Source of the DNA: Methanotrichaceae archaeon
GTDB taxonomy: Archaea; Halobacteriota; Methanosarcinia; Methanotrichales; Methanotrichaceae
Assembly (NCBI GenBank): GCA_963803145.1
Contig: CAWDLW010000029.1
Span: forward strand, 1-45,281
DNA length: 45,281 bases
Direction: 5' to 3'
A program made the position numbers and the translations under genes. Numbering within the stretch: position 1 is the first letter of the stretch; the number at the start of each line of letters is the position of its first letter. This document shows, piece after piece, positions 16,202 through 26,011 of the stretch. The notes beneath the pieces were generated by a model. That model made no database searches, was not told where the DNA came from, and worked only from the letters and a program-made list of their open reading frames with translations.

Positions 16202-17925
16202 TTAGTTATTGGTGTTGGGGTTGGTCAAGAACAATATGTTTCTGCCCGTGTCGTACTTCCAAGTAAAGCCGAAGAGCATGTTCATGTCGTCACCTGTGAT
16301 AAGGAAGTTCTTGCTGCTATCGACAACGACGTTATCCGGCAGAATAACCTGGGCCTTGCCCAGCGTTGCTTTGGCGCTGGCATTTGTTAAGACGACAGTA
16401 TGGACTTTGCCGTCCGACCAGACAATCCCTGTCCCGGTATAATCCTGCACAATAAGAGATAACGTCTCATTACTGCTCGATACTGACTCCGAACCGCCAA
16501 GGACCTCAACCACAGGTTTGATGGGGAAGTACCACTTGCCGTTGATCTGAGATGGGAAATTCGGCACCAATGGCTGATTGAGCAAAGCGCCGTTGACGGC
16601 CAGCCTGGGATTGTTGTACTTCGGTGGCACAGCGGTCTTAGGCATGTCTCCACTCGTTTTATCTATTGTGTAGTCATCAGCGAGCGTTCCATCCATCTTG
16701 TAGTTCTTTATCTCCATCCGGGACGCGTTGACGTCTACGACAATATAATTCGGCATATCCTGCGGGTCAAAGAAGTTTGCATCCCATACTTTCGGCACAT
16801 TATCGTTATAGTACTTGGCACCGCTTCTTCCAGTTATCACATAAACAGTGCCCAAAGCTGGAGAGCTTACTTCAGTATCGTTCTTGATGGGATAGGTCCG
16901 AGAATAGCAATGGTCATGGCCATTAAACACTACATCAACATGGTACTTGTCGAGGATGGGACCAAAAGCGGCCTTGATATCTTCGTATGTCCTGTAGGCC
17001 TTGGTGTAATAGGGCGTCTTGTGCCAGAAGACCACTTTCCAATCCTTCTTGGTTTGGTTCAGGTCTTTCTCCAGCCAAGCCTTTTCATCATTCACAAGAT
17101 TCGGGTGGAATTTCTGTTCCTCAAGGAACTGGCTATCAAGCACTACAAAATGCACATTTCCATAGTCGTACGAATATACTCTCGACTGTTGTTATAAGGA
17201 CCGTTATTCGGCACATTGAACTGGCCTTCGTAGAGCGTTGGCACTGTCTTATTGTTGTTCATGTCATAGGTCTCGTGATTTCCTTCGACTGGCATATAGG
17301 AGATCGAATTAATAACGCCTTTATCTGCTGCGAACCAGTTATTCCAGTGGGCATTGGATTGTCCAACTTCCACTGCATCCCCCACATTTACAAAGAAGCT
17401 GGCATCAGGGTTGGTTTTGGATGCGTTCTGGACAGTAGATTGCCAGGGTTTATAATCAGGCTTCTTGGCATCCCCACTCTGGCTGTCCCCGAAGACCAAG
17501 AACTTGAATTGATTGGTGTTATTGTTCTCGGTTCTAAAGGAGTATATTGGGCTCCAATTTTTCTTGCCATCGCCGACTCTGTAGTAGTATTGGGTTCCGG
17601 GCTTTAAATTGGTGAGCGTAGCCGTTGAGATGTTCTCATCACCAAGATCGGTTTTCAGTGTGCCTACATGAGCGGATTTAGTCATGTTATCTTTAAGTTC
17701 GCTATCCGTGCCGTATTGGACGATGCCTGTCCCAACAGTGCTATCTGTCCTCCAGGTCACAGCCTGTGTTGTCATAGGATCGCTGACCCATGATAAAGTG
17801 ATGTGATCAGGAACAGCTGTAGCATTAACACTAGTTGTCTGAGTGCCAGGCTGATCTGCGCCAAAGGCTCCTGTTAATGAGGTGATTATCACTATCAGAA
17901 AGACTATTCCAATGCCTAACTTCAT
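16202..17925 (-). pseudogene. Frameshifted secreted purple-acid-phosphatase-like metallophosphoesterase (FN3-like + Metallophos + C-terminal domain)
   Basis: GDSQ, GD and GNHE motifs in ORF 17143-17925; VYSYDYGNVHFVVLDS and GHDH in the shifted frame; break at ~17178-17191. Confidence 0.85.
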
Positions 17926-18476
17926 CTTCTTCCTCCTTGAAGTTAACTAAGCGTTGTCACCACAAAAGAGAAATATACCTTTTGATCATAGAATATATTG
18001 GTATATTTACAATTGATGAATGACATGTGGGAATAGAATGTATAGATAAAAAATAGATCAAAATACTTAATGTTTATGATCGTTCTCTATATTTATCGAG
18101 ACACTTAGGTTCTGCTCAACACCTATGAGTATGAAGATGGAGATGATTCCTAGAGCGGCTCTTCATATCACATGGAAATTGTATTTACGATTGTGCTAAA
18201 ATCTATATAGATTCAGGATTGAATTATTGGATATATGTTTTATTTAGGAAAAATATATGAAGGGATTGACTATGTTTGTATATAAATGAGGGCAGATACA
18301 AAGGTAAATATCGTTATGTATGTTAGTGCTATCATCCTTCTTCTATTTCTAGTAGTTTACCATTTTTATACAGGAAGATCCATAAAGATATAATGCAAGA
18401 TTCTGGGTTTTCTTATGATATTCCCTGCCTGTAAACATAAACGCCGCAATAAAATTGGAAGCTTGAACTGATAAAT

Positions 18477-19484
18477 ATGGAGACACGGAAAGTACAGAGA
18501 ACTGGGAAATCCACATTTGTGGTTTCTATTCCAAAAGTTTGGGCAACGAAGAATGGGATACAGAACGGCTCGATAATCTACATCAATCAAGGAGATAATG
18601 GAGTCCTGGTTCTATCCTCAGAACGATCAGAAAAGCATCTAAAAATCAAGCTAGACATTGGAAATAAATCAGGTGATCCATTGATCAGGGATATAATCGC
18701 CTGCTATCTGGCAGGCCATAGGACTATAGAGATCACCTCCAGTCATATGACTTCTGCCCAAAAGAAAGATCTGCATAAGATAGTGGATAAGCTTCTAGGT
18801 CCGGAAATCCTCGAGGAGACAGTCAATAAAGTTGTCATTGATGATCTACTGAGCTCGGAGGAACTCCCTGCGGAGAAGGCTTTGAGAAGAATCAAGACAT
18901 TGACAACATCCATGATCAATGATAGCATGACCGCCTTGTTAACAGGTGATAAGGATTTGGCAGCTGATGTTGTTCAGAGGGATAATGATGTTGATCGCCT
19001 GAATCTATTGATCTCTCGTCAATTCACTGAGATTTTGAGATATGGATCAATAAGTAAAGCGAGTCACAATCCGATAACTGCCCTTTACTATATGCAGGCG
19101 GCATCTAACCTTGAGAGGATCGCAGACCATGCATTGAAGATCTCACAGATCGCAGGAGATCAGAGCAGCAGCCTCCCTAAAGAGATAAAGGATGAGCTTA
19201 TCACATTGAAATCGACATTCTCGAACCTTATTGAAGAGTCGATTTCCGCCCTTCTTCAAAGCGACTCAACTAGAGCCAACAAAATTATAGATAAAATAAA
19301 GGAAGCTCAAACTTGCTCCCAAATCATGGCTAATTCCACTAAAGCAAAGAACGGTGAGGATATGCTTGTCAGGCTTGTTGTGGCCAGCAGCATTGAACGT
19401 ATACTTGATTATATAATGAACATCGGCGAGCTAACAGTAAACCTGAGCAACTCAAATCTGGATATAGATGCAAAAAAAGGTTAG
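18477..19484 (+). CDS. phoU: Phosphate uptake regulator, AbrB-type DNA-binding domain plus two PhoU domains
   Basis: METRKVQxTGxSTFVVSIPKxWA N-terminus; DNDVDRL, LERIADH, IERILDY motifs. Confidence 0.92.
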   Translation: METRKVQRTGKSTFVVSIPKVWATKNGIQNGSIIYINQGDNGVLVLSSERSEKHLKIKLDIGNKSGDPLIRDIIACYLAGHRTIEITSSHMTSAQKKDLHKIVDKLLGPEILEETVNKVVIDDLLSSEELPAEKALRRIKTLTTSMINDSMTALLTGDKDLAADVVQRDNDVDRLNLLISRQFTEILRYGSISKASHNPITALYYMQAASNLERIADHALKISQIAGDQSSSLPKEIKDELITLKSTFSNLIEESISALLQSDSTRANKIIDKIKEAQTCSQIMANSTKAKNGEDMLVRLVVASSIERILDYIMNIGELTVNLSNSNLDIDAKKG

Positions 19485-19672
19485 AATAATTATCCTTCGA
19501 GATTTTTAGTCTCAGTCAGGAGAGAACTTATATTGCTATGGGATTTTGGCTCTTTGCTTAGCCAAATCCATATGCTGAAGCCCATATGGAACAAGAGAGG
19601 TGACAGCAAAATTGATGTCCATGGAATAGTGCTTTAACTATACTAATATGCCAATTATATAAACACTACAAC

Positions 19673-20758
19673 TATAGTCAATTTTGCATCTAACTTCCTA
19701 ATAGAAAACCTTAATATTCAAGGCGTTAAATTATAGCTGATGGGAAGAAAACCTAAAGTCATAAAACATATCTCAAAAGAAGAGCTAGAAGACCTATATA
19801 GAAAAGAAAAAGATCCAAGAATTAAAGAGAGGCTGTTAGCGATAATTCATCTTTATGAAAAGAAAAACATTTACGAAGTTCAGGACATTTTGAAAAAGAG
19901 CGATCGAACTATCAAGGATTGGTTAAGTAGATGGAATAATAAAGGCTATGAAGGACTAATACCAGGAAGCGGAGGTGGCGTTGAACCGAGGATACCTTCT
20001 CAGGAATGGGATAATATTATTAAAGAGATTGAAGGTAAAGGGATGACTATCAGAGATGTTATGGTTTATGTCAAGACTACGAGAGGTGTAGACTATTCTT
20101 ATAACACGACGTGGAAAATTTTAAGAGTGGATAAAGGAGTTAAGTATGGGAAACCCTATATTAAAAATGAGAAAAGACCAGAATATGCGGAAAAAATTTT
20201 AAAAAAGAATAGATTGCGTGTTATCAACAGTCACTGATCCCATTGTGGGTTTTCTAGATGAGAGTTCATTGCAACAAAATCCCAATAAAAGACGAGTGAT
20301 AAACACTCCTGTGATAAAATATGATCAAGGCAGAAAGAGATCTAAGACTATATTCGGTTTTATGGCTATAAATGGCAACGATGCAGTCATGCTATCTGAT
20401 TCGTCTAAGGCAGAAGATATGATTAGTTTTATCCAAGTAATAAGAACAGCTAACATTATGAAGCCAATATGTCTCCTGCTCGATAATGCAAAGATACATC
20501 TGGCAAAAACAGTTAGGATATTAGCTCAAGAATTGGATATCCACTTTATCTACTTGCCCCCATATTCGCCAGATTTGAATCCTATTGAGTTTGGATGGAA
20601 AGATTTGAAAAGAGATTTGAGTAAATTCCTTAATTTTGATGAGGCTATCGAAATGAGTGAAGAGTGTGCCCTAAAAATTATATATTTCAGGAAAGATGGA
20701 TACTCTAGGCATGTGATAAATAAGGTTTTTAGTGAAGAAAGTTAGGAGATTGACTATA
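19673..20758 (+). mobile_element. IS630-family insertion sequence, apparently complete
   Basis: Inverted ends TATAGTCAAT (19673-19682) / ATTGACTATA (20749-20758) including flanking TA; inner CTAACTT/AAGTTAG; lower GC than flanks. Confidence 0.9.
19740..20745 (+). CDS. IS630 transposase in two overlapping ORFs (19740-20237 HTH; 20218-20745 DDE), probably joined by -1 frameshift
   Basis: FLDES, LLDNAKIH, LPPYSPDLNPIE; slippery AAAAAAG at 20201-20207. Confidence 0.9.
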
Positions 20759-20900
20759 ATCACTCCCGGAAGTTAGGTTAAACTCTTGGTTAACTTTGCC
20801 CTAATACTTAGATCGCAAAACTTACAGATGTGAAATTAGAACTTATGGATAAGAAAAGTCAAGGCCGAGGGTATGCTAGGCATCAGGCCAATCCTTAGAC

Positions 20901-21030
20901 ATGCATCCTGTATTCGATCAGCTGTTGCAATCATTTGCTAGTGCGCATATGAAAGCAGCTCGCAGTCCTTATGCGTAGAATGGACCGCATCGGGCTGGCT
21001 GACGGCAGCCCAACCTCCTAGAGCCAGCTC
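20901..21030 (-). ncRNA. Predicted TnpB omega-RNA 3' part and guide (5' boundary unknown)
   Basis: Minus strand GTCAGC (21003-20998) complementary to GCTGAT (20922-20917); interrupted terminal hairpin at 20923-20960; guide would start at 20916. Confidence 0.55.
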
Positions 21031-22086
21031 TCGGAGGTTAATGGATGCAACGAAATCGGCATTGTCCTGATATCCGCAACTGACGCATCTGAATAGCGCC
21101 TGGCTTTTGCGGTTATATTTATCTATTGTACCGCACCTTGGACAGCGCTGGGACGTATAATCCGGCCTAACAAGAACCACTGGAATGCCCATCTCTTCAC
21201 ATTTATAGGAGATCATGCGCTGTAGATTGGCAATTGTTGAAGACCCACAATCTTGTCTATTACGACCACTACGACCGGATCTATTTCCTTTCGGTTTCAT
21301 TTTAGTGCCGTACAGCCTTTCCAAGACCGGATAATCCCCTTCATTGAGGGACTCGATCAGCGCCCTGCTGGACTGATGCAGGAATGTCCTCTGCCATCTT
21401 TTCTCCCTGCCGGATAGCTGTTTGAGCCTCTTCTTAGCAGAAGAGGTGCCTTTAGACCGAAGGGAGACCTTCAGGATCTGGAAGTGGTTTCTCCTGGCCC
21501 TAATCTGGCCGCCATTGATCATGAAGCCATTTGATGCCATCATAAGCTTCCTTGTTCCAAGATCGACCCCAACAGGTTCTTCCGTACCCCTCTGATTCAC
21601 ATAACAAATAACATAGATATGAATATAGAGCCTTCTCCTTCGCAAAACAAGTCTAGCCCCAGACACGGGATTACTTAGAACGTTCTTTTGGCGCTCACCC
21701 AAGGCCAGCTTGACTTTGGCTCTGCCTTTTGTTGTCGTCAAGGAAGCTATAAAGTGCTCATTCCTTTTGAGGCTGAAGATTCTCCTGTCAAGTGGCAGAG
21801 ATCTTTCCCTGAATATATGGTGTTTATGAGGCTGCTCTTTGTAAGATGATATAACCCTATTTATGGCCCGAACTGCCAGGCTTGCTGGGAGTTTAAATGT
21901 TGCCCTTATATTCTTATAAGCTAATTTATGGAGCGTCCTATAATCGAGAATCCTTTTCTGGAAGCATATAAGGCTCAGGTAGTTGCAGGCATCCTCAAAG
22001 GCGATGATGGTGCTTCGAAGCTTCTCGATATCCTCGGAAGCGGGATCGATGCCGCAGACTACTTTTTTTGAAATTTCCAGTGTCAT
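20938..22086 (-). CDS. tnpB: TnpB (IS200/IS605, IS1341-type) RNA-guided nuclease
   Basis: RuvC D (GVDLG), E (VLERL), D (NADFVAS); TSQRCPRC...CVSC zinc finger; frame open to 22122. Confidence 0.92.
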   Translation of the reverse strand: MTLEISKKVVCGIDPASEDIEKLRSTIIAFEDACNYLSLICFQKRILDYRTLHKLAYKNIRATFKLPASLAVRAINRVISSYKEQPHKHHIFRERSLPLDRRIFSLKRNEHFIASLTTTKGRAKVKLALGERQKNVLSNPVSGARLVLRRRRLYIHIYVICYVNQRGTEEPVGVDLGTRKLMMASNGFMINGGQIRARRNHFQILKVSLRSKGTSSAKKRLKQLSGREKRWQRTFLHQSSRALIESLNEGDYPVLERLYGTKMKPKGNRSGRSGRNRQDCGSSTIANLQRMISYKCEEMGIPVVLVRPDYTSQRCPRCGTIDKYNRKSQALFRCVSCGYQDNADFVASINLRELALGGWAAVSQPDAVHSTHKDCELLSYAH

Positions 22087-22118
22087 TCTCGTTTTATCTC
22101 TCCGCCAGTTCCAAGATT

Positions 22119-22494
22119 TCACAGGGATTCAGCTGTGCTATTGAAGTGTCTTCTTTTTGCCGTATAAGGATGCTTTTTTGCCCATTCGATTGCATTTTTT
22201 ACTGCCTGGATGCTGTATAATATCGCTTCCAGCTCATCCTCTCTCTGTTCCATGCTCTTTTCAGGTATCTCCAGGCGCCATGACTCCAGAACCGCAGACT
22301 CAAGACTCGACTTCAGATCCTCAGGCATATCTATATTTCTTAGGATATCTAATATTAGGCCGAGCTTGAAGTTCCTGAACTCTCCTTCTCTTTTGATTAG
22401 GCCGCCTCTCCTGAATAGTGCATCATAGTAATTTACCTGGCCAAACAGATCTATCGCTTGTTTTGAATTCTTCAGCGCACAAAGCTTCTGACAT
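22119..22494 (-). pseudogene. Frameshifted ~125-aa hypothetical protein directly upstream of tnpB
   Basis: AGGAG RBS and ATG 22494 MSEALCAEEFK; removing one A from the A4 run (22461-22464) joins it to QAIDLFGQVNYYDALFRRGGLIK...DMPEDLK of ORF 22119-22328. Confidence 0.65.
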
Positions 22495-22525
22495 GTTTAT
22501 ATCTCCTATAGCTTTAAAACACGAA

Positions 22526-23182
22526 TTATGCAACCTTGAAGAATTTCCATGCATCCTCGATATGCATAGCCTTCATGCCCAGTTTTCTCGAGGGATAAAT
22601 ATCATTTTCAAACGAATCGCCTACGAACAGTATTTCATTCGGCCTCATGTTCAGTTGAGTTGCTCCTTCGAGGAATATCTCCGGACAGGGTTTCTTCCGC
22701 CCAAAGTCTGATGAAAAGATTATGAATTTAAAGTACTTATGCAGGCCTAGGTGTCTGATCTCTAGTTCAGAAAAGACACGCTGGCCATTGGATACTATGC
22801 CCATTGGATAGCTCTTAAGCATCTCCAGCATCCTTATGCTCTGAGGATAGGCCTGAAGCCTTCTCAAAGAAGCCGATCTGAACAGGCGTGCGGCCTCCAT
22901 GCCAACCGTCAATTCATTGATATCCCAGGAAGCATGCCGACGACCGATCTTTGCGAAGATCTCCTCGACCTTCAGCTCGGAATGCATTACTCCCCGCCTC
23001 TCAATCTCCTCCTTACAGAGCCATCGGTATTCATTCATAAGCTCCTGGGGCCCGATGTTAACGCCATGATACATTAGCCATCTGCTCACAGGCTCATAGG
23101 TGCTTATACTCCGCTCGTCCGTCTTTATGTTAACAAGCGTCTTATAACAATCGAACATTATGCCCTTTACTTCATCGAGCAT
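22526..23182 (-). CDS. HAD-superfamily hydrolase (paralog 2)
   Basis: FDCYKTLVN, VSNGQ, KKP, GDSFENDI; colinear with 527-1198. Confidence 0.92.
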   Translation of the reverse strand: MLDEVKGIMFDCYKTLVNIKTDERSISTYEPVSRWLMYHGVNIGPQELMNEYRWLCKEEIERRGVMHSELKVEEIFAKIGRRHASWDINELTVGMEAARLFRSASLRRLQAYPQSIRMLEMLKSYPMGIVSNGQRVFSELEIRHLGLHKYFKFIIFSSDFGRKKPCPEIFLEGATQLNMRPNEILFVGDSFENDIYPSRKLGMKAMHIEDAWKFFKVA

Positions 23183-23373
23183 GCACTCCCTCCAGAATTT
23201 ATGAAAATAATATTTGTAAACATGGGATTATGGCCTTCGCCGTTTTCATTATAATGCCCGTTGAAAATTCTCTTTATATTAGAAAGCCTTATAATCTCCG
23301 GGTATATTTTAAAGCTGTTTTCCCTGGCGCATGTAAATTCAATTGCCACAATACCATGGCATGTTCTTGGATA

Positions 23374-23401
23374 TTATATAGTTTATCTCATTTAAATATA
23401 T
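23374..23401 (-). promoter_or_regulatory. 28-bp promoter motif shared by the HAD2, APH3 and PHP genes, copy 1
   Basis: TTATATAGTTTATCTCATTTAAATATAT, 25/28 identity to 24443-24470. Confidence 0.7.
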
Positions 23402-23451
23402 TCGAGAAATTACAATAGTATGTCTATATAGATGTATTTGCAATTAGTATT

Positions 23452-24414
23452 TTACAGCTTTCCGTTCAAATAAATAGCCTTAAGGCAATCTGTTGCTTTT
23501 CTGAAGATGTAAGCATTATGATCCTGATCTATGCCGAGCCTGGCCATTCTGAAAAGACCGAGAGCCATAAAGAACGGTAAAGTCTTTGTTATCCTATGAA
23601 ATTCATCCTCGTTTTTGCTATAGCGCCAAAGGAAATGGCCTATATATGGCTCTGCCTTCTCTTCGTTATTCTTATGAATAGCAAAATAATGCTTTAGCTC
23701 TGCTGCAATTATTCCAAGATCATGAATGAAACTGGCATGCTCCCACGAGCTTTCAAAATCAATTGCATAAATCTTGTCATGGTTGAAGATATAATTTAAT
23801 GGATTTGCATCGCTGTGAATTCGGCACCCATATGGCAGGTCCACAAGAGTGCTGTACCACCAATCACCTAAAATTCGGTTGTATTTTTTTCTTGCGGAAC
23901 AATCTAAGCGCAATTGGTCTAACACCTTATGGAAATGAGCAAACTCATCTTGCTTTCTGTAAATCGATTTTGTGCTGTCATGCAGCCTTCTCAGGATCTG
24001 GGCTGTAGCCGTGAGCTTATCATAAAGCTCCTTTTCAGTCTCCATATGTCTGTAAAGAGTCTTGCCGCGCACGGCTTCCGTCACCAGAACACAGTTGAAG
24101 TCTTTTCTCATGGCTATAGGCCTTGGGACATCTATAATCTGAGCAGCTCTTTTAAGGATCGAGAATTCCCTCTCCATCGACTTGACCGGATCGTAATCTC
24201 TTCTCCAGCCTGTAGGCTCTGCATAGAATTTTGCCACGACTCCATAGTTCTCTCCAATAAACTCGTATCTACAGACTGTATGAGACGCTGGCTCTACCTT
24301 GTAGACCATGACATCGCATCTTTTGTTGCTTATCTTGTCATTTAGTATATAAACAAGCCAATCCCTAAAGAGATCTCCATGCATTAGTGTGCTTACGTGC
24401 TTTTCCGAGAGCAT
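23452..24414 (-). CDS. APH-like kinase (paralog 3)
   Basis: HSDANPLN and DFE motifs; colinear with paralogs 1 and 2. Confidence 0.88.
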   Translation of the reverse strand: MLSEKHVSTLMHGDLFRDWLVYILNDKISNKRCDVMVYKVEPASHTVCRYEFIGENYGVVAKFYAEPTGWRRDYDPVKSMEREFSILKRAAQIIDVPRPIAMRKDFNCVLVTEAVRGKTLYRHMETEKELYDKLTATAQILRRLHDSTKSIYRKQDEFAHFHKVLDQLRLDCSARKKYNRILGDWWYSTLVDLPYGCRIHSDANPLNYIFNHDKIYAIDFESSWEHASFIHDLGIIAAELKHYFAIHKNNEEKAEPYIGHFLWRYSKNEDEFHRITKTLPFFMALGLFRMARLGIDQDHNAYIFRKATDCLKAIYLNGKL

Positions 24415-24442
24415 ATTCCTGGTAGAGACAGAGATCAGCGAG

Positions 24443-24470
24443 TTATATAGCTTATCTCATTAAACTATAT
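24443..24470 (-). promoter_or_regulatory. 28-bp promoter motif, copy 2
   Basis: TTATATAGCTTATCTCATTAAACTATAT, ~29 nt upstream of the APH3 start. Confidence 0.72.
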
Positions 24471-24508
24471 GCAAGTAAATCCTAAATATAATGTATATTC
24501 AAAAGGTT

Positions 24509-25498
24509 TTATCGAAATGCCCGTGCCATTTCTTTTTCTATCTCTGGCAGCAATAGCCTCTCTGATCTTAGATAAAGCAAAGCAGGAATGCCTGAATTGG
24601 ATATTTTATAGGCCATGCCTATGGCAGATCTTTGAAGCCTTGGGAAATCCATCAAAGTGTTGCTGGATAATATACGGATGATTTTATCTACGTAGCCTAC
24701 CCCTGTGGATATATATGATGCCTCTTGGACCATTTCATGGCGGAAGATCATCCCTATCCAGGCATTTATCTCCTCAACTAGATCCTCTTTGGTCAGATCC
24801 TTTATAACGATATAGGAATTTCCTTTCTTTATATTTCTGAAGTATTCTTTGAAGGTATCCCCACGTGAGAGCGTATATACCTTGCCGATCGATCCAGAAT
24901 GAGTATCTGTGGAGGCCACAAGCCCTCGGTTGTATTTTCGGGCAATATTCATGACAAGCTCATTCTTTCGATGTATACGGTACATATTATACTCCAGGAC
25001 TGGGAATAGCTTGGCTAGCTTTGGTATGGCAGCCAGGTTCGGCAGCTCATCCGGCTCGAACCATAGGGGATGGTTATATACGAATGGCAACTCATTTCTC
25101 TTAAGATATGCTAAAAAGGCCTTGAGGTCTCCATCCCGGGCAATCTCCTCAAGCTCATTGAAATGATCTTTATTCAGGTCGTAAACATTTACATGTATAG
25201 TATGGCCTACCATCGCCATATCTTTTATCTTAATCTCAACCCCAGTAACCAGGTTCTCTCTATTCCAGCCGATGAGGTCATAAGCATCCATCGTATCGTG
25301 ATCTGTAAATGTGATAAACTCAAGTCCCATTCTTCGGGACTTATTGTATATCTCAAGCGGATGAAGCGGCCAGGCAGGCAATACATCCCGGGAGAAAAAT
25401 GTATGAACATGCAGGTCTGCAGCATGCCAATCCTGCTGCCTGAGATCCTCAGCTTCTTCATGAGTGAGTATACCGGTCTCTTTCTTACTTCCAGGCAT
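24509..25498 (-). CDS. PHP-domain metal-dependent phosphoesterase
   Basis: ADLHVHT, ITFTDHD, GVEI, NHP, ASTDTHS. Confidence 0.9.
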   Translation of the reverse strand: MPGSKKETGILTHEEAEDLRQQDWHAADLHVHTFFSRDVLPAWPLHPLEIYNKSRRMGLEFITFTDHDTMDAYDLIGWNRENLVTGVEIKIKDMAMVGHTIHVNVYDLNKDHFNELEEIARDGDLKAFLAYLKRNELPFVYNHPLWFEPDELPNLAAIPKLAKLFPVLEYNMYRIHRKNELVMNIARKYNRGLVASTDTHSGSIGKVYTLSRGDTFKEYFRNIKKGNSYIVIKDLTKEDLVEEINAWIGMIFRHEMVQEASYISTGVGYVDKIIRILSSNTLMDFPRLQRSAIGMAYKISNSGIPALLYLRSERLLLPEIEKEMARAFR

Positions 25499-25521
25499 GA
25501 AATTGGCTTTGCTACCTCTGG

Positions 25522-25549
25522 TTTTATACTTTATCTCCTTAAACTATAT
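25522..25549 (-). promoter_or_regulatory. 28-bp promoter motif, copy 3
   Basis: TTTTATACTTTATCTCCTTAAACTATAT, 24/28 identity to copy 2; ~24 nt upstream of the PHP start. Confidence 0.7.
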
Positions 25550-25741
25550 ATTAATAAATCTTTATTGAGATCTATAGAGTGAGTCCAAAACTAATAATCG
25601 AGGTGGATGGCATAATCAAAGATGGCCTCAACAAAATGACACGTTTACTTATGGAGAACTGGAATAATCAATTCTCTCGCTATTAAATCCACTATAAATA
25701 ATCGGATAGATTCCGGTCCTCCAAGGAGGGCCAATTGGAAT

Positions 25742-26011
25742 CTATGTAGAAGCCAGGATAGCTTTTGAACTCTGGAGGCCGCTATCCCAGCCTATCAATA
25801 TAGTGCGAACTGCAGCAATGCCATGCATCGCTTGCACATCATCTATTATCTGATTTAGCCCACTCAAGCCATCTGCCTGCAGTATCATAAAGAAATCGTA
25901 TTCACCGAATATATGATAGATATCCAACACGCCAGCATTATTTTTCAGGCTGTAATATATCGATCTCTCGCACCCAGGCGTGACTCCGACCATAGCAACT
26001 GCTATTACCAT
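25742..26011 (-). CDS. Stand-alone Lrp/AsnC ligand-binding (RAM) domain protein
   Basis: MVIAVAMVGVTPGCE..YHIFGEYDFF..VRTIL; GGTGGAG RBS before ATG 26011. Confidence 0.85.
   Translation of the reverse strand: MVIAVAMVGVTPGCERSIYYSLKNNAGVLDIYHIFGEYDFFMILQADGLSGLNQIIDDVQAMHGIAAVRTILIGWDSGLQSSKAILAST

What the first reader, a model, noticed from the sequence alone, without database searches (positions are those of the whole stretch)
20901..22494. Solo TnpB with a preserved omega-RNA end but no TnpA and no room for a left end
Seen: RuvC D/E/D and the zinc finger are intact, but the usual aromatic W-x-F/Y before 'LxxxIxYK' reads STIANLQRMISYK. The upstream ORF ends only ~32 bp before the likely start, with no left-end hairpin. 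At the 3' end GTCAGC can pair with GCTGAT after an interrupted hairpin; IS1341-type ends as I recall them use GTCAAC/GTTGAC, so this would be a compensatory change. Established: TnpB uses an RNA overlapping its 3' end, with the flank serving as guide, and has been domesticated repeatedly. Inference: an immobilised TnpB co-transcribed with a host gene and holding a fixed guide (CGAAUACAGGAUGCAU...).
Basis: partly seen in the sequence, partly recalled or inferred. Interest (0 to 1): 0.7.

Follow-up and report, generated by a model that had tools for sequence, protein, structure and literature searches.

The report
Immobilised archaeal TnpB with fixed guide
A single-copy, still nuclease-competent TnpB gene has stayed at one chromosomal spot in a family of methanogens, and the 16 bases that should serve as its RNA guide stay nearly constant across genera, although no matching target could be found.

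Summary
Window 20938-22077 (minus strand) encodes a 379-aa TnpB with an intact RuvC D/E/D triad and zinc finger. It is the only copy in its genome and has no adjacent TnpA and no left-end hairpin.

Orthologues occur once per genome in 10 of 105 Methanotrichaceae genomes. In the window's subclade they keep the same neighbours (small host gene, AbrB-PhoU unit, HAD, kinase) across genera. dN/dS is 0.115, like the neighbouring genes. The last 38 codons show dS = 0 against the same-genus orthologue, which marks an omega-RNA scaffold.

The pseudoknot 3' strand GCTGAT (20922-20917) pairs with GTCAGC (21003-20998) and covaries in relatives. The 16 nt that follow (20916-20901) lie where relatives carry variable flank, which is the guide. 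In this subclade they are conserved: the core ACAGGATGC is invariant in all 20 loci examined. Conservation stops there.

Two points are not:
- No target was found in host genomes or viral contigs.
- Expression and co-transcription are untested, and the upstream "host gene" is a frameshifted, truncated pseudogene in this window.

A 157-nt deletion specific to this window explains the missing left-end room.

The parts
20938..22077 (-). tnpB coding sequence (379 aa from ATG 22077; stop TAG 20940-20938)
   Evidence: TNB domain is over the Pfam cut-off. D172/E253/D341 and four Cys are invariant in 10 of 10. Best fold matches are Cas12f and TnpB.
20917..21066 (-). Inferred omega-RNA scaffold overlapping the last ~45 codons and 21 nt of 3' UTR (5' limit approximate)
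   Evidence: Identical-codon fraction is 0.76-0.83 in residues 331-365, against 0.33-0.64 elsewhere. dS = 0.000 in the last 38 codons against 0.577 in codons 1-330. Expression was not tested.
21012..21039 (-). 12-bp hairpin AACCUCCGAGAG/CUCUAGGAGGUU (stem-1-like)
   Evidence: 12 predicted pairs, several kept through one-sided changes.
20998..21003 (-). Pseudoknot 5' strand GTCAGC (codons of V-S in AAVSQP)
   Evidence: Pairs with GCTGAT. It is GTCAAC in relatives that end GTTGAC and ATCAGT in L060, which ends ACTGAT.
20917..20922 (-). Pseudoknot 3' strand GCTGAT, the canonical end of the scaffold / right end
   Evidence: Two copies in genome G031 diverge immediately after the homologous GCTGAC.
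20901..20916 (-). Guide-position block CGAATACAGGATGCAT (core ACAGGATGC, 20911-20903)
   Evidence: Identical in the same-genus genome. One to four changes in other genera. The core is invariant in 20 of 20 subclade-A loci. Homology to G002 and G016 ends at 20901-20903.
22119..22494 (-). Pseudogene of a small host gene family (165-175 aa in relatives)
   Evidence: The family is present in 65 of 105 family genomes. The window copy has a +1 frameshift near 22453 and lacks the last ~40 codons.
22146..22147 (.). Junction of a 157-nt deletion relative to the same-genus locus
   Evidence: The deletion removes the 3' end of the small gene and part of the spacer before tnpB.
19673..20758 (+). IS630-like insertion (HTH + DDE_3 in two overlapping frames), not part of the TnpB unit
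   Evidence: terminal inverted repeats; an identical 1086-bp copy on contig C23. Absent from G002.
18202..19484 (+). Host unit: promoter-like TATA elements (18202-18260), 35-aa membrane-peptide ORF (18287-18394), AbrB-PhoU gene (18477-19484). It is inverted here relative to tnpB.
   Evidence: The same unit lies 60-90 nt after the block, co-directional, in six other subclade-A loci. It lies directly after the PHP gene in two TnpB-less genomes.

Best explanation
This is an IS1341-type (TnpA-less) TnpB element. It entered the intergenic region upstream of the AbrB-PhoU unit in an ancestor of several Methanotrichaceae genera, lost its mobility, and has since been inherited as a single-copy chromosomal gene under purifying selection.

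The protein keeps a complete RuvC triad and zinc finger. Its 3' end still encodes an omega-RNA scaffold (stem 1, pseudoknot GUCAGC/GCUGAU).

The 16 nt after the pseudoknot occupy the guide slot. In this subclade they are fixed (C-D-W-W-W-ACAGGAUGC-N-N). The most likely mechanism is a TnpB-omega-RNA ribonucleoprotein loaded with one hard-wired guide, which recognises, and probably cuts, a constant sequence that is not in the host chromosome, for example on an invading element.

Shown: single copy, shared neighbours, purifying selection, RNA-level constraint, pseudoknot covariation, and conservation confined to the guide slot.

Inferred: that the RNA is made, that the block is used as a guide, the transposon-adjacent motif (TAM), and the target.
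For: Copy number:
- Of 15 TnpB-like places in the genome, only the window's is close. The rest are at most 48% identical over fragments, or about 30%.
- 10 of 105 family genomes carry an orthologue, each with a single match at E<=1e-70.
- The clade was found only in 9 Methanotrichaceae/Methanothrix/Methanosarcinales MAG records among 19 loci returned from 185,579 species.

Shared neighbours:
- G002 is fully collinear with the window.
- G041 reads small gene -> tnpB -> AbrB-PhoU ... kinase.
- AbrB-PhoU lies next to the tnpB 3' end in 9 of 12 subclade-A loci that have enough flank.

Selection:
- dN/dS is 0.115, against 0.082-0.117 for four neighbouring genes.
- All 14 full-length subclade-A ORFs are open.

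RNA-level constraint.

Guide slot:
- Subclade C (4 loci, 52-57% identical) ends GTAGTTGAC and is followed by four unrelated flanks.
- Subclade A (20 loci) has the block, then no conservation.
- In the ISDra2 structure the pseudoknot strand is nt -6 to -2, directly before the guide (PMC10097598, passages).
- After the inversion of the PhoU unit in the window's genus, the block stayed with tnpB.

Two TnpB-less genomes keep the same promoter, peptide ORF and PhoU, but have no block.

My arithmetic (dS ~0.55, so p-distance ~0.39): 16 of 16 identical neutral sites between the window and G002 has a chance of about 4e-4.
Against: - No target was found. In the own genome there is no second site with 0-1 mismatches, and two with 2 mismatches, as expected by chance. 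There are no sites with TGAT plus seed.
- Family-wide, the degenerate block pattern gave 28 sites in 105 genomes. 7 are TnpB-linked. The other 21 are scattered and have no common 5' flank.
- The variable positions (2-5) lie in what would be the TAM-proximal seed, and the invariant part is TAM-distal. This is the opposite of what a conserved target would predict.
- GGAUGC can pair with GCAUCC just 5' of stem 1.
- The distribution is patchy: 2 of 59 genomes in genus g2, and absent from G001.
- The G041 copy lacks its first ~86 codons.
- Expression is unknown.
- The AlphaFold model is poor for the RuvC half (pLDDT below 50).
Confidence: 0.55

Rival explanations
1. The 16-nt block is not a guide. 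It is a lineage-specific 3' extension of the omega-RNA: a closing helix GGAUGC/GCAUCC, or a processing or stability signal. The real guide, if any, is the variable DNA beyond 20901, or the RNP has no sequence-specific target.
For: - The minimum-free-energy fold and the RNAalifold consensus pair 21048-21043 with 20908-20903 in 14 of 14 sequences.
- The partner lies at the 5' border of the region of synonymous conservation.
- 17 of 18 subclade-A sequences use the Ala codon GCA there. All 4 subclade-C sequences use GCC.
- No target for the block was found.
Against: - The helix has no covariation: 6 pairs, none vary.
- L056 has GCCUCC upstream yet keeps GGAUGC.
- A 6-nt complement somewhere within ~150 nt is expected by chance about 0.4 times (my estimate).
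- In ISDra2 the nucleotides after the pseudoknot enter the guide channel (PMC10097598, passages).
- Subclades B and C work with no such helix.
Confidence: 0.2
2. The element is still occasionally mobile or horizontally exchanged among related methanogens. It may carry the block with it, or spread by recombination of the conserved flanking genes. The conservation would then reflect element-level selection, not host-level selection.
For: - The distribution is patchy: 10 of 105 genomes, 2 of 59 in g2, absent in G001.
- Three intact Y1 TnpA genes lie elsewhere in the genome.
- 5' flanks differ among closely related g2-type loci.
- The flanking genes are conserved enough to allow homologous exchange.
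Against: - There is never more than one copy per genome.
- The same neighbours recur across genera.
- Genera are monophyletic in the TnpB tree.
- No left-end hairpin is present in the window.
- None of the 87 viral loci checked (of 102 pattern hits) carries a TnpB.
Confidence: 0.12
3. The nuclease acts independently of the guide. It could be a toxin-like or addiction module, as proposed for some immobile active TnpBs, or it could nick its own locus (CTGAT + block).
For: - Altae-Tran et al. (PMC10691335, passages) describe non-mobile clades predicted to be active and propose a toxin role for the RHH/MazE-linked ones.
- The distribution here is patchy.
- The only perfect match to the block is the locus itself.
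Against: - No small antitoxin-like gene accompanies it. The upstream gene has no Pfam match and is a pseudogene here.
- RuvC-III is D, not H.
- If guide and target were the same DNA, nothing would conserve the sequence.
Confidence: 0.08
4. It is an ordinary decaying IS remnant, and its similarity to relatives reflects recent common descent only.
For: - The G041 copy is 5'-truncated.
- The left end is lost in the window.
- An IS630 sits nearby.
Against: - dN/dS is 0.115 over dS 0.49.
- Catalytic residues are kept at 49-62% identity in 10 of 10 orthologues.
- 14 of 14 full-length ORFs are open.
- A 9-nt core is invariant while the adjacent DNA cannot be aligned.
Confidence: 0.03

Closest known systems
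IS1341-type / IS200-IS605 TnpB-omega-RNA nucleases (e.g. ISDra2 TnpB)
   Same: Domain order, D-E-D RuvC, C4 zinc finger, an omega-RNA overlapping the 3' end of the gene, a pseudoknot strand immediately before a 16-nt guide slot, and fold matches to 8h1j/8exa/8iaz and to Cas12f.
   Different: Single copy, no TnpA next to it, no left-end hairpin, and fixed chromosomal neighbours across genera. The guide slot holds a conserved sequence, not whatever DNA happens to flank the element.
TldR, TnpB-like nuclease-dead repressors (Wiegand et al.; only the search listing and the start of the abstract were seen)
   Same: Derived from TnpB, immobile, and with a guide conserved among orthologues.
   Different: RuvC residues are intact here, and no host promoter or gene matching the guide was found. 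The statement that TldR guides match host promoters is recalled, not read here.
Non-mobile, predicted-active TnpB clades and RHH/MazE-TnpB of Altae-Tran et al. 2023 (PMC10691335, passages only)
   Same: An archaeal, immobile TnpB predicted to be an active nuclease, with a patchy distribution.
   Different: RuvC-III is Asp, not His. No small AbrB/RHH gene lies upstream; the AbrB-PhoU gene lies downstream and in the window's genus is inverted. Their SI Table S5 could not be read, so this clade may already be listed there.
Cas12f / type V CRISPR effectors
   Same: These are the best sequence and fold matches.
   Different: No repeat array lies within 17000-26000. There is a single fixed guide-like segment, not spacers.

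Membership tests
TnpB (IS200/IS605 OrfB) superfamily | Split RuvC nuclease with a D-E-D triad | tested here: met
   D172, E253 and D341 are invariant in 10 of 10 orthologues.
TnpB (IS200/IS605 OrfB) superfamily | C4 zinc finger / TNB domain between RuvC-II and RuvC-III | tested here: met
   Cas12f1-like_TNB scores 76.8 bits against a cut-off of 26.3. C312/C315/C331/C334 are invariant.
TnpB (IS200/IS605 OrfB) superfamily | Match to the OrfB_IS605 core model | tested here: inconclusive
   20.9 bits, below the 30.5 cut-off.
TnpB (IS200/IS605 OrfB) superfamily | Fold like solved TnpB/Cas12f | tested here: met
   36 PDB matches at E<=0.001. The top ones are AsCas12f, ISFba1 TnpB and ISDra2 TnpB. 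The N-terminal half fits at 3.6-4.9 A (TMt ~0.6). The RuvC half of the model has low confidence.
TnpB (IS200/IS605 OrfB) superfamily | Omega-RNA overlapping the 3' end, with the pseudoknot next to the guide | tested here: met
   Synonymous-site conservation and a pseudoknot kept through changes on both sides. RNA expression was not tested.
Mobile IS200/IS605 or IS1341 element | Several near-identical copies with different flanks | tested here: not met
   One copy in the genome. One match per genome in 10 of 10 carriers.
Mobile IS200/IS605 or IS1341 element | Left-end hairpin and an adjacent or cognate TnpA | tested here: not met
   No inverted repeat in 22060-22200. Y1_Tnp is found only on other contigs.
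TldR (nuclease-dead TnpB repressors) | Loss of RuvC catalytic residues | tested here: not met
   The triad is intact.
TldR (nuclease-dead TnpB repressors) | Guide conserved among orthologues | tested here: met
   The core ACAGGATGC is invariant in 20 of 20 subclade-A loci.
TldR (nuclease-dead TnpB repressors) | Guide matches a host promoter or gene | tested here: not met
   None found beyond chance.
RHH/MazE-TnpB (Altae-Tran 2023) | RuvC-III Asp replaced by His; small AbrB/RHH gene directly upstream | tested here: not met
   D341 is kept. The upstream gene belongs to a 165-175 aa family with no Pfam match.
Type V CRISPR (Cas12f) | Adjacent CRISPR array | tested here: not met
   No tandem repeats in 17000-26000.

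The most novel reading that the evidence does not exclude
A family of methanogens maintains a nuclease-active TnpB as a one-guide, hard-wired RNA-guided system. The invariant guide core has been held for longer than the genera have existed. That would happen if it recognises a sequence that itself cannot change: a conserved site of an invading plasmid or virus (innate, spacer-less immunity), or a cellular RNA. The core is complementary to 9-12 nt of the organism's own 16S rRNA.
Probability: 0.3. Interest if true: 0.8.

Novelty: new variant of a known kind. Interest (0 to 1): 0.62.

Why it matters
The known fates of TnpB are three: a mobile selfish nuclease with a flank-derived guide, a CRISPR effector with many guides, or a nuclease-dead repressor with a fixed guide. 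A catalytically intact, immobile TnpB whose guide slot is frozen across genera would be a fourth state.

It also gives a concrete 16-nt sequence to test. That makes the function of "immobile but active" TnpB clades directly assayable. Altae-Tran et al. 2023 noted these clades, and in the passages read only the RHH/MazE-linked ones were given a proposed function.

If the target is foreign DNA, this would be a minimal innate RNA-guided defence in archaea.

Tried and rejected
Targets for the block:
- Whole own genome, up to 4 mismatches. There are 0 extra sites with 0-1 mismatches and 2 with 2 mismatches, about the number expected by chance.
- A 12-mer pattern in five carrier genomes gave 28 sites against 1 for the reversed control. 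The excess comes from coding triplets such as Y-R-M-L.
- The best recurring site is a GKYRMLYR motif of a membrane protein in G016 and G098. In the own genome that motif has 4 mismatches. Rejected.
- The family-wide degenerate pattern gave no common 5' flank.
- Local searches around five loci found nothing beyond chance.
- TGAT plus seed in the own genome matches only the locus itself.
- A site in an ABC-ATPase gene on C48 is coding chance.

A MAFFT match of the block to the phoU coding motif EISKRML in TnpB-less genomes was set aside. Those loci are the pst-linked paralogue. The syntenic empty sites have no block.

16S rRNA: the core is complementary to 16S rRNA. This is treated as probably chance, because the 9-mer occurs 61 times in the genome.

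Viral contigs: the pattern gave 102 hits, about the random expectation. 0 of the 87 loci held carry a TnpB.

Rfam: nothing relevant in 19500-23500.

Empty site in the same genus: G001 has a different gene order, so no clean comparison was possible. G095 gave no clean empty site for the G098 locus.

TAM: it could not be derived. A TGATC motif about 80-130 nt upstream of several members was noticed but not established as a left end.

RNA evidence: no RNA holder was listed by the look-up of sequencing runs.

Other limits:
- Supplementary files of PMC10691335 (Table S5, non-mobile active clades) could not be read.
- My parsing script failed for 14 of 38 rows, and the one misplaced L056. Those rows were read directly.
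Full report
WHAT IS THERE

On the minus strand, 20938-22122 is open (394 aa from a GTG). The start shared with the orthologue is ATG 22077, giving 379 aa.

Pfam finds the Cas12f1-like TNB domain well above its cut-off. The OrfB_IS605 core is found only below its cut-off. Sequence search of solved structures gives 20 matches at E<=0.01, led by AsCas12f and including TnpB entries.

An AlphaFold model was built from a 10-row alignment. It is confident for residues 1-160 and poor for the RuvC half (mean pLDDT 61.4). Its 36 PDB matches at E<=0.001 are headed by Cas12f, ISFba1 TnpB and ISDra2 TnpB.

In an alignment of 10 orthologues, D172, E253, D341 and the four zinc-finger cysteines are invariant.

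The window has SSTIANLQRMISYK where AsCas12f has WTYYDLQQKIIYK. The Trp is missing in 6 of 10 orthologues.

No CRISPR-like array lies within 17000-26000. Rfam has nothing relevant.

COPY NUMBER AND DISTRIBUTION

The genome (51 contigs, 4.13 Mb) has 15 TnpB-like places. Only the window's copy belongs to this type; the others are about 30% identical or are short fragments.

Y1 TnpA genes exist (three intact, one broken), all on other contigs.

In the GTDB family, 10 of 105 genomes have an orthologue at E<=1e-70, always as one match. By genus the counts are:
- g1: 1 of the 2 other genomes, plus the window's own genome
- g15: 2 of 2
- g11: 1 of 1
- g4: 3 of 3
- g2: 2 of 59
- eleven other genera: none

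G001, a 99%-complete genome of the same genus, lacks it.

A scan of one genome per species (185,579 species) returned 19 loci. The 9 loci with 49% identity or more are all Methanotrichaceae/Methanothrix/Methanosarcinales MAG records. The rest are at most 40% identical, and 9 of those 10 are bacterial.

Metagenomes gave 32 further loci of 49% identity or more, among the 80 kept of 125 relatives.

THREE SUBCLADES AND THE GUIDE SLOT

A maximum-likelihood tree of 37 rows gives (C,(B,A)). Subclade A holds the window and has support 92/78. The genera g1, g15 and g2 are each monophyletic.

All three subclades share the 12-bp stem, the GGGCUG...CAGCC helix, and a hexamer in the V-S/N-Q-P codons that pairs with a hexamer at the very 3' end:
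- GTCAAC/GTTGAC in subclade C and in distant relatives
- GTCAGC/GCTGAT in subclades A and B
- ATCAGC/GCTGAT in L056
- ATCAGT/ACTGAT in L060

In the ISDra2 structure the 3' pseudoknot strand is nt -6 to -2 and the 16-nt guide starts right after it (PMC10097598, passages read).

What follows the hexamer differs by subclade:
- In subclade C (4 loci) there are four unrelated sequences. In genome G031, two copies diverge immediately after GCTGAC. This is the behaviour of a flank-derived guide.
- Subclade B is shallow (branch lengths 0.02-0.1). Its flank is only partly similar, and one member is quite different.
- In subclade A (20 loci, 19 distinct) the next 16 nt read C-[GTA]-[ATC]-[ATC]-[TA]-ACAGGATGC-[ATG]-[TCA]. 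The 9-nt core is invariant, and the DNA beyond it is not conserved.

BLAST homology of the window to G002 and to G016 ends at 20901 and 20903.

SELECTION

Against G002, tnpB has dN 0.056, dS 0.487 and dN/dS 0.115. Four neighbouring genes give 0.082-0.117.

Codons 331-368 have dS = 0.000, against 0.577 for codons 1-330. Across 14 full-length subclade-A genes, the fraction of identical codons at conserved residues rises from 0.33-0.64 to 0.76-0.83 in residues 331-365. An RNA-level constraint therefore covers about the last 45 codons and runs to GCTGAT.

With that dS, 16 of 16 identical neutral sites would have a chance of about 4e-4 (my arithmetic).

THE LOCUS AND ITS HISTORY

G002 is collinear with the window over about 12 kb, with three exceptions:
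- The DNA between the block and the AbrB-PhoU gene cannot be aligned.
- An IS630-like element is present only in the window: 19673-20758, with inverted ends, and with an identical copy on C23.
- There is a 157-nt indel at 22146/22147.

The small ORF upstream of tnpB belongs to a host family found in 65 of 105 family genomes, with members of 165-175 aa. The G002 copy is intact. The window copy has a 1-nt insertion and lacks the last ~40 codons. G002 has about 95 nt between the stop and the ATG.

No hairpin lies in 22060-22200.

In other genera the same neighbours recur:
- G041 reads small gene -> tnpB (lacking ~86 N-terminal codons) -> AbrB-PhoU -> paralogue ... kinase.
- L052, L060, L070, L049 and G016 have AbrB-PhoU co-directional just after tnpB.
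- L057, like the window and G002, has it convergent.
- G098, G066 and L054 have the kinase there in its place.

Two TnpB-less genomes (G079, G095) read PHP gene -> TATA-like elements -> a 35-aa membrane-peptide ORF -> AbrB-PhoU. The same promoter and peptide ORF start 60-90 nt after the block in subclade-A loci. The empty sites contain no block.

In the window this host unit (18202-19484) is inverted, and the block stayed with tnpB.

The simplest history is one ancient insertion upstream of the PhoU unit, followed by immobilisation, vertical descent with losses, and local rearrangements.

WHAT THE BLOCK DOES

By position it is the guide. I could not find what it matches. The searches are listed under Tried and rejected.

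Two facts weigh against a plain "conserved guide, conserved DNA target":
- The variable positions 2-5 are TAM-proximal.
- GGAUGC can pair with GCAUCC immediately 5' of stem 1. 17 of 18 subclade-A sequences use the GCA codon there, while subclade C uses GCC.

Against the helix:
- None of its six pairs varies.
- L056 breaks it without any change in the block.
- A 6-nt complement within ~150 nt is likely by chance.

The core is also complementary to 9 nt of 16S rRNA, and to 12 nt in the g15-type block. The 9-mer occurs 61 times in the genome, so I treat this as a lead only.

COMPARISON WITH WHAT IS KNOWN

Altae-Tran et al. 2023 (PMC10691335, passages) report that most TnpB clusters are immobile. 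They report that some non-mobile clades are predicted to be active and are mostly unlinked to other genes. They propose a toxin role for the RHH/MazE-linked archaeal clade, which has RuvC-III His. The window's clade keeps Asp and has no such partner.

For TldRs I saw only the search listing and the start of the abstract. TldRs are nuclease-dead; this protein is not.

I found no description of a nuclease-intact TnpB with a guide conserved across genera. The searches behind that statement were and the passages read. Supplements were closed.

VERDICT

This is a real feature. It is unproven on guide function, expression and co-transcription.

It is a new variant of a known kind: a domesticated or immobile TnpB. 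It is of moderate to high interest because it offers a precise, testable sequence.

Noticed in passing
window 19673-20758 (+): An IS630-like element (HTH domains plus DDE_3 in two overlapping frames, 19740-20237 and 20218-20745) with imperfect terminal inverted repeats and TA flanks. A 100% identical 1086-bp copy lies on contig C23, and about ten ~69% relatives are listed elsewhere. It is absent from the orthologous site of the same-genus genome.
   Followed up: partly
window 18202-18394 (+); also L052, L049, L060, L036, L310, L070, L330, L331: A conserved pair of TATA-like elements followed by a small ORF of about 35 aa that encodes one hydrophobic helix. In the window it reads MRADTKVNIVMYVSAIILLLFLVVYHFYTGRSIKI. 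It lies directly upstream of the AbrB-PhoU gene, both in genomes with the TnpB and in genomes without it.
   Followed up: partly
window 22119-22494 (-): A member of a widespread Methanotrichaceae gene family of 165-175 aa with no Pfam match (65 of 105 genomes). In this window it is inactivated by a 1-nt insertion and a 157-nt 3' deletion.
   Followed up: yes
G000 C8:347078 and C20:80639 (16S rDNA); L148, L133: 16S rRNA around position 1013-1028 is complementary to the invariant core of the block (9 nt), and to 12 nt of the block variant of genus g15. The 9-mer occurs 61 times in the genome against ~31 expected.
   Followed up: partly
L035 10884-10907 (G002), within the stretch deleted from the window: A 9-bp imperfect hairpin (TTTGCATTC / GACTGCAAA) about 100 nt upstream of the G002 tnpB start, near a TTGATC motif. 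A TGATC motif also lies 80-130 nt upstream of several other subclade-A genes. This may be a left-end remnant.
   Followed up: no
L063 (metagenome locus), upstream of its tnpB: The 3' end of a second TnpB-type element, ending ...GTAGCTGAC, lies directly upstream of a subclade-C element. This is a tandem or nested insertion.
   Followed up: no
L335 4416-6873 and relatives: In TnpB-less genomes the closest AbrB-PhoU homologue sits at the end of a pstB-phoU operon. A second paralogue sits in the PHP/HAD/kinase neighbourhood. Best-hit and synteny orthology disagree for the window's gene.
   Followed up: partly
G000 contigs C13, C15, C33: Three identical intact Y1 (IS200-type) TnpA genes and one broken copy on C8, together with about a dozen other TnpB homologues of ~30% identity. 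Other IS200/IS605 elements appear active in this genome.
   Followed up: no
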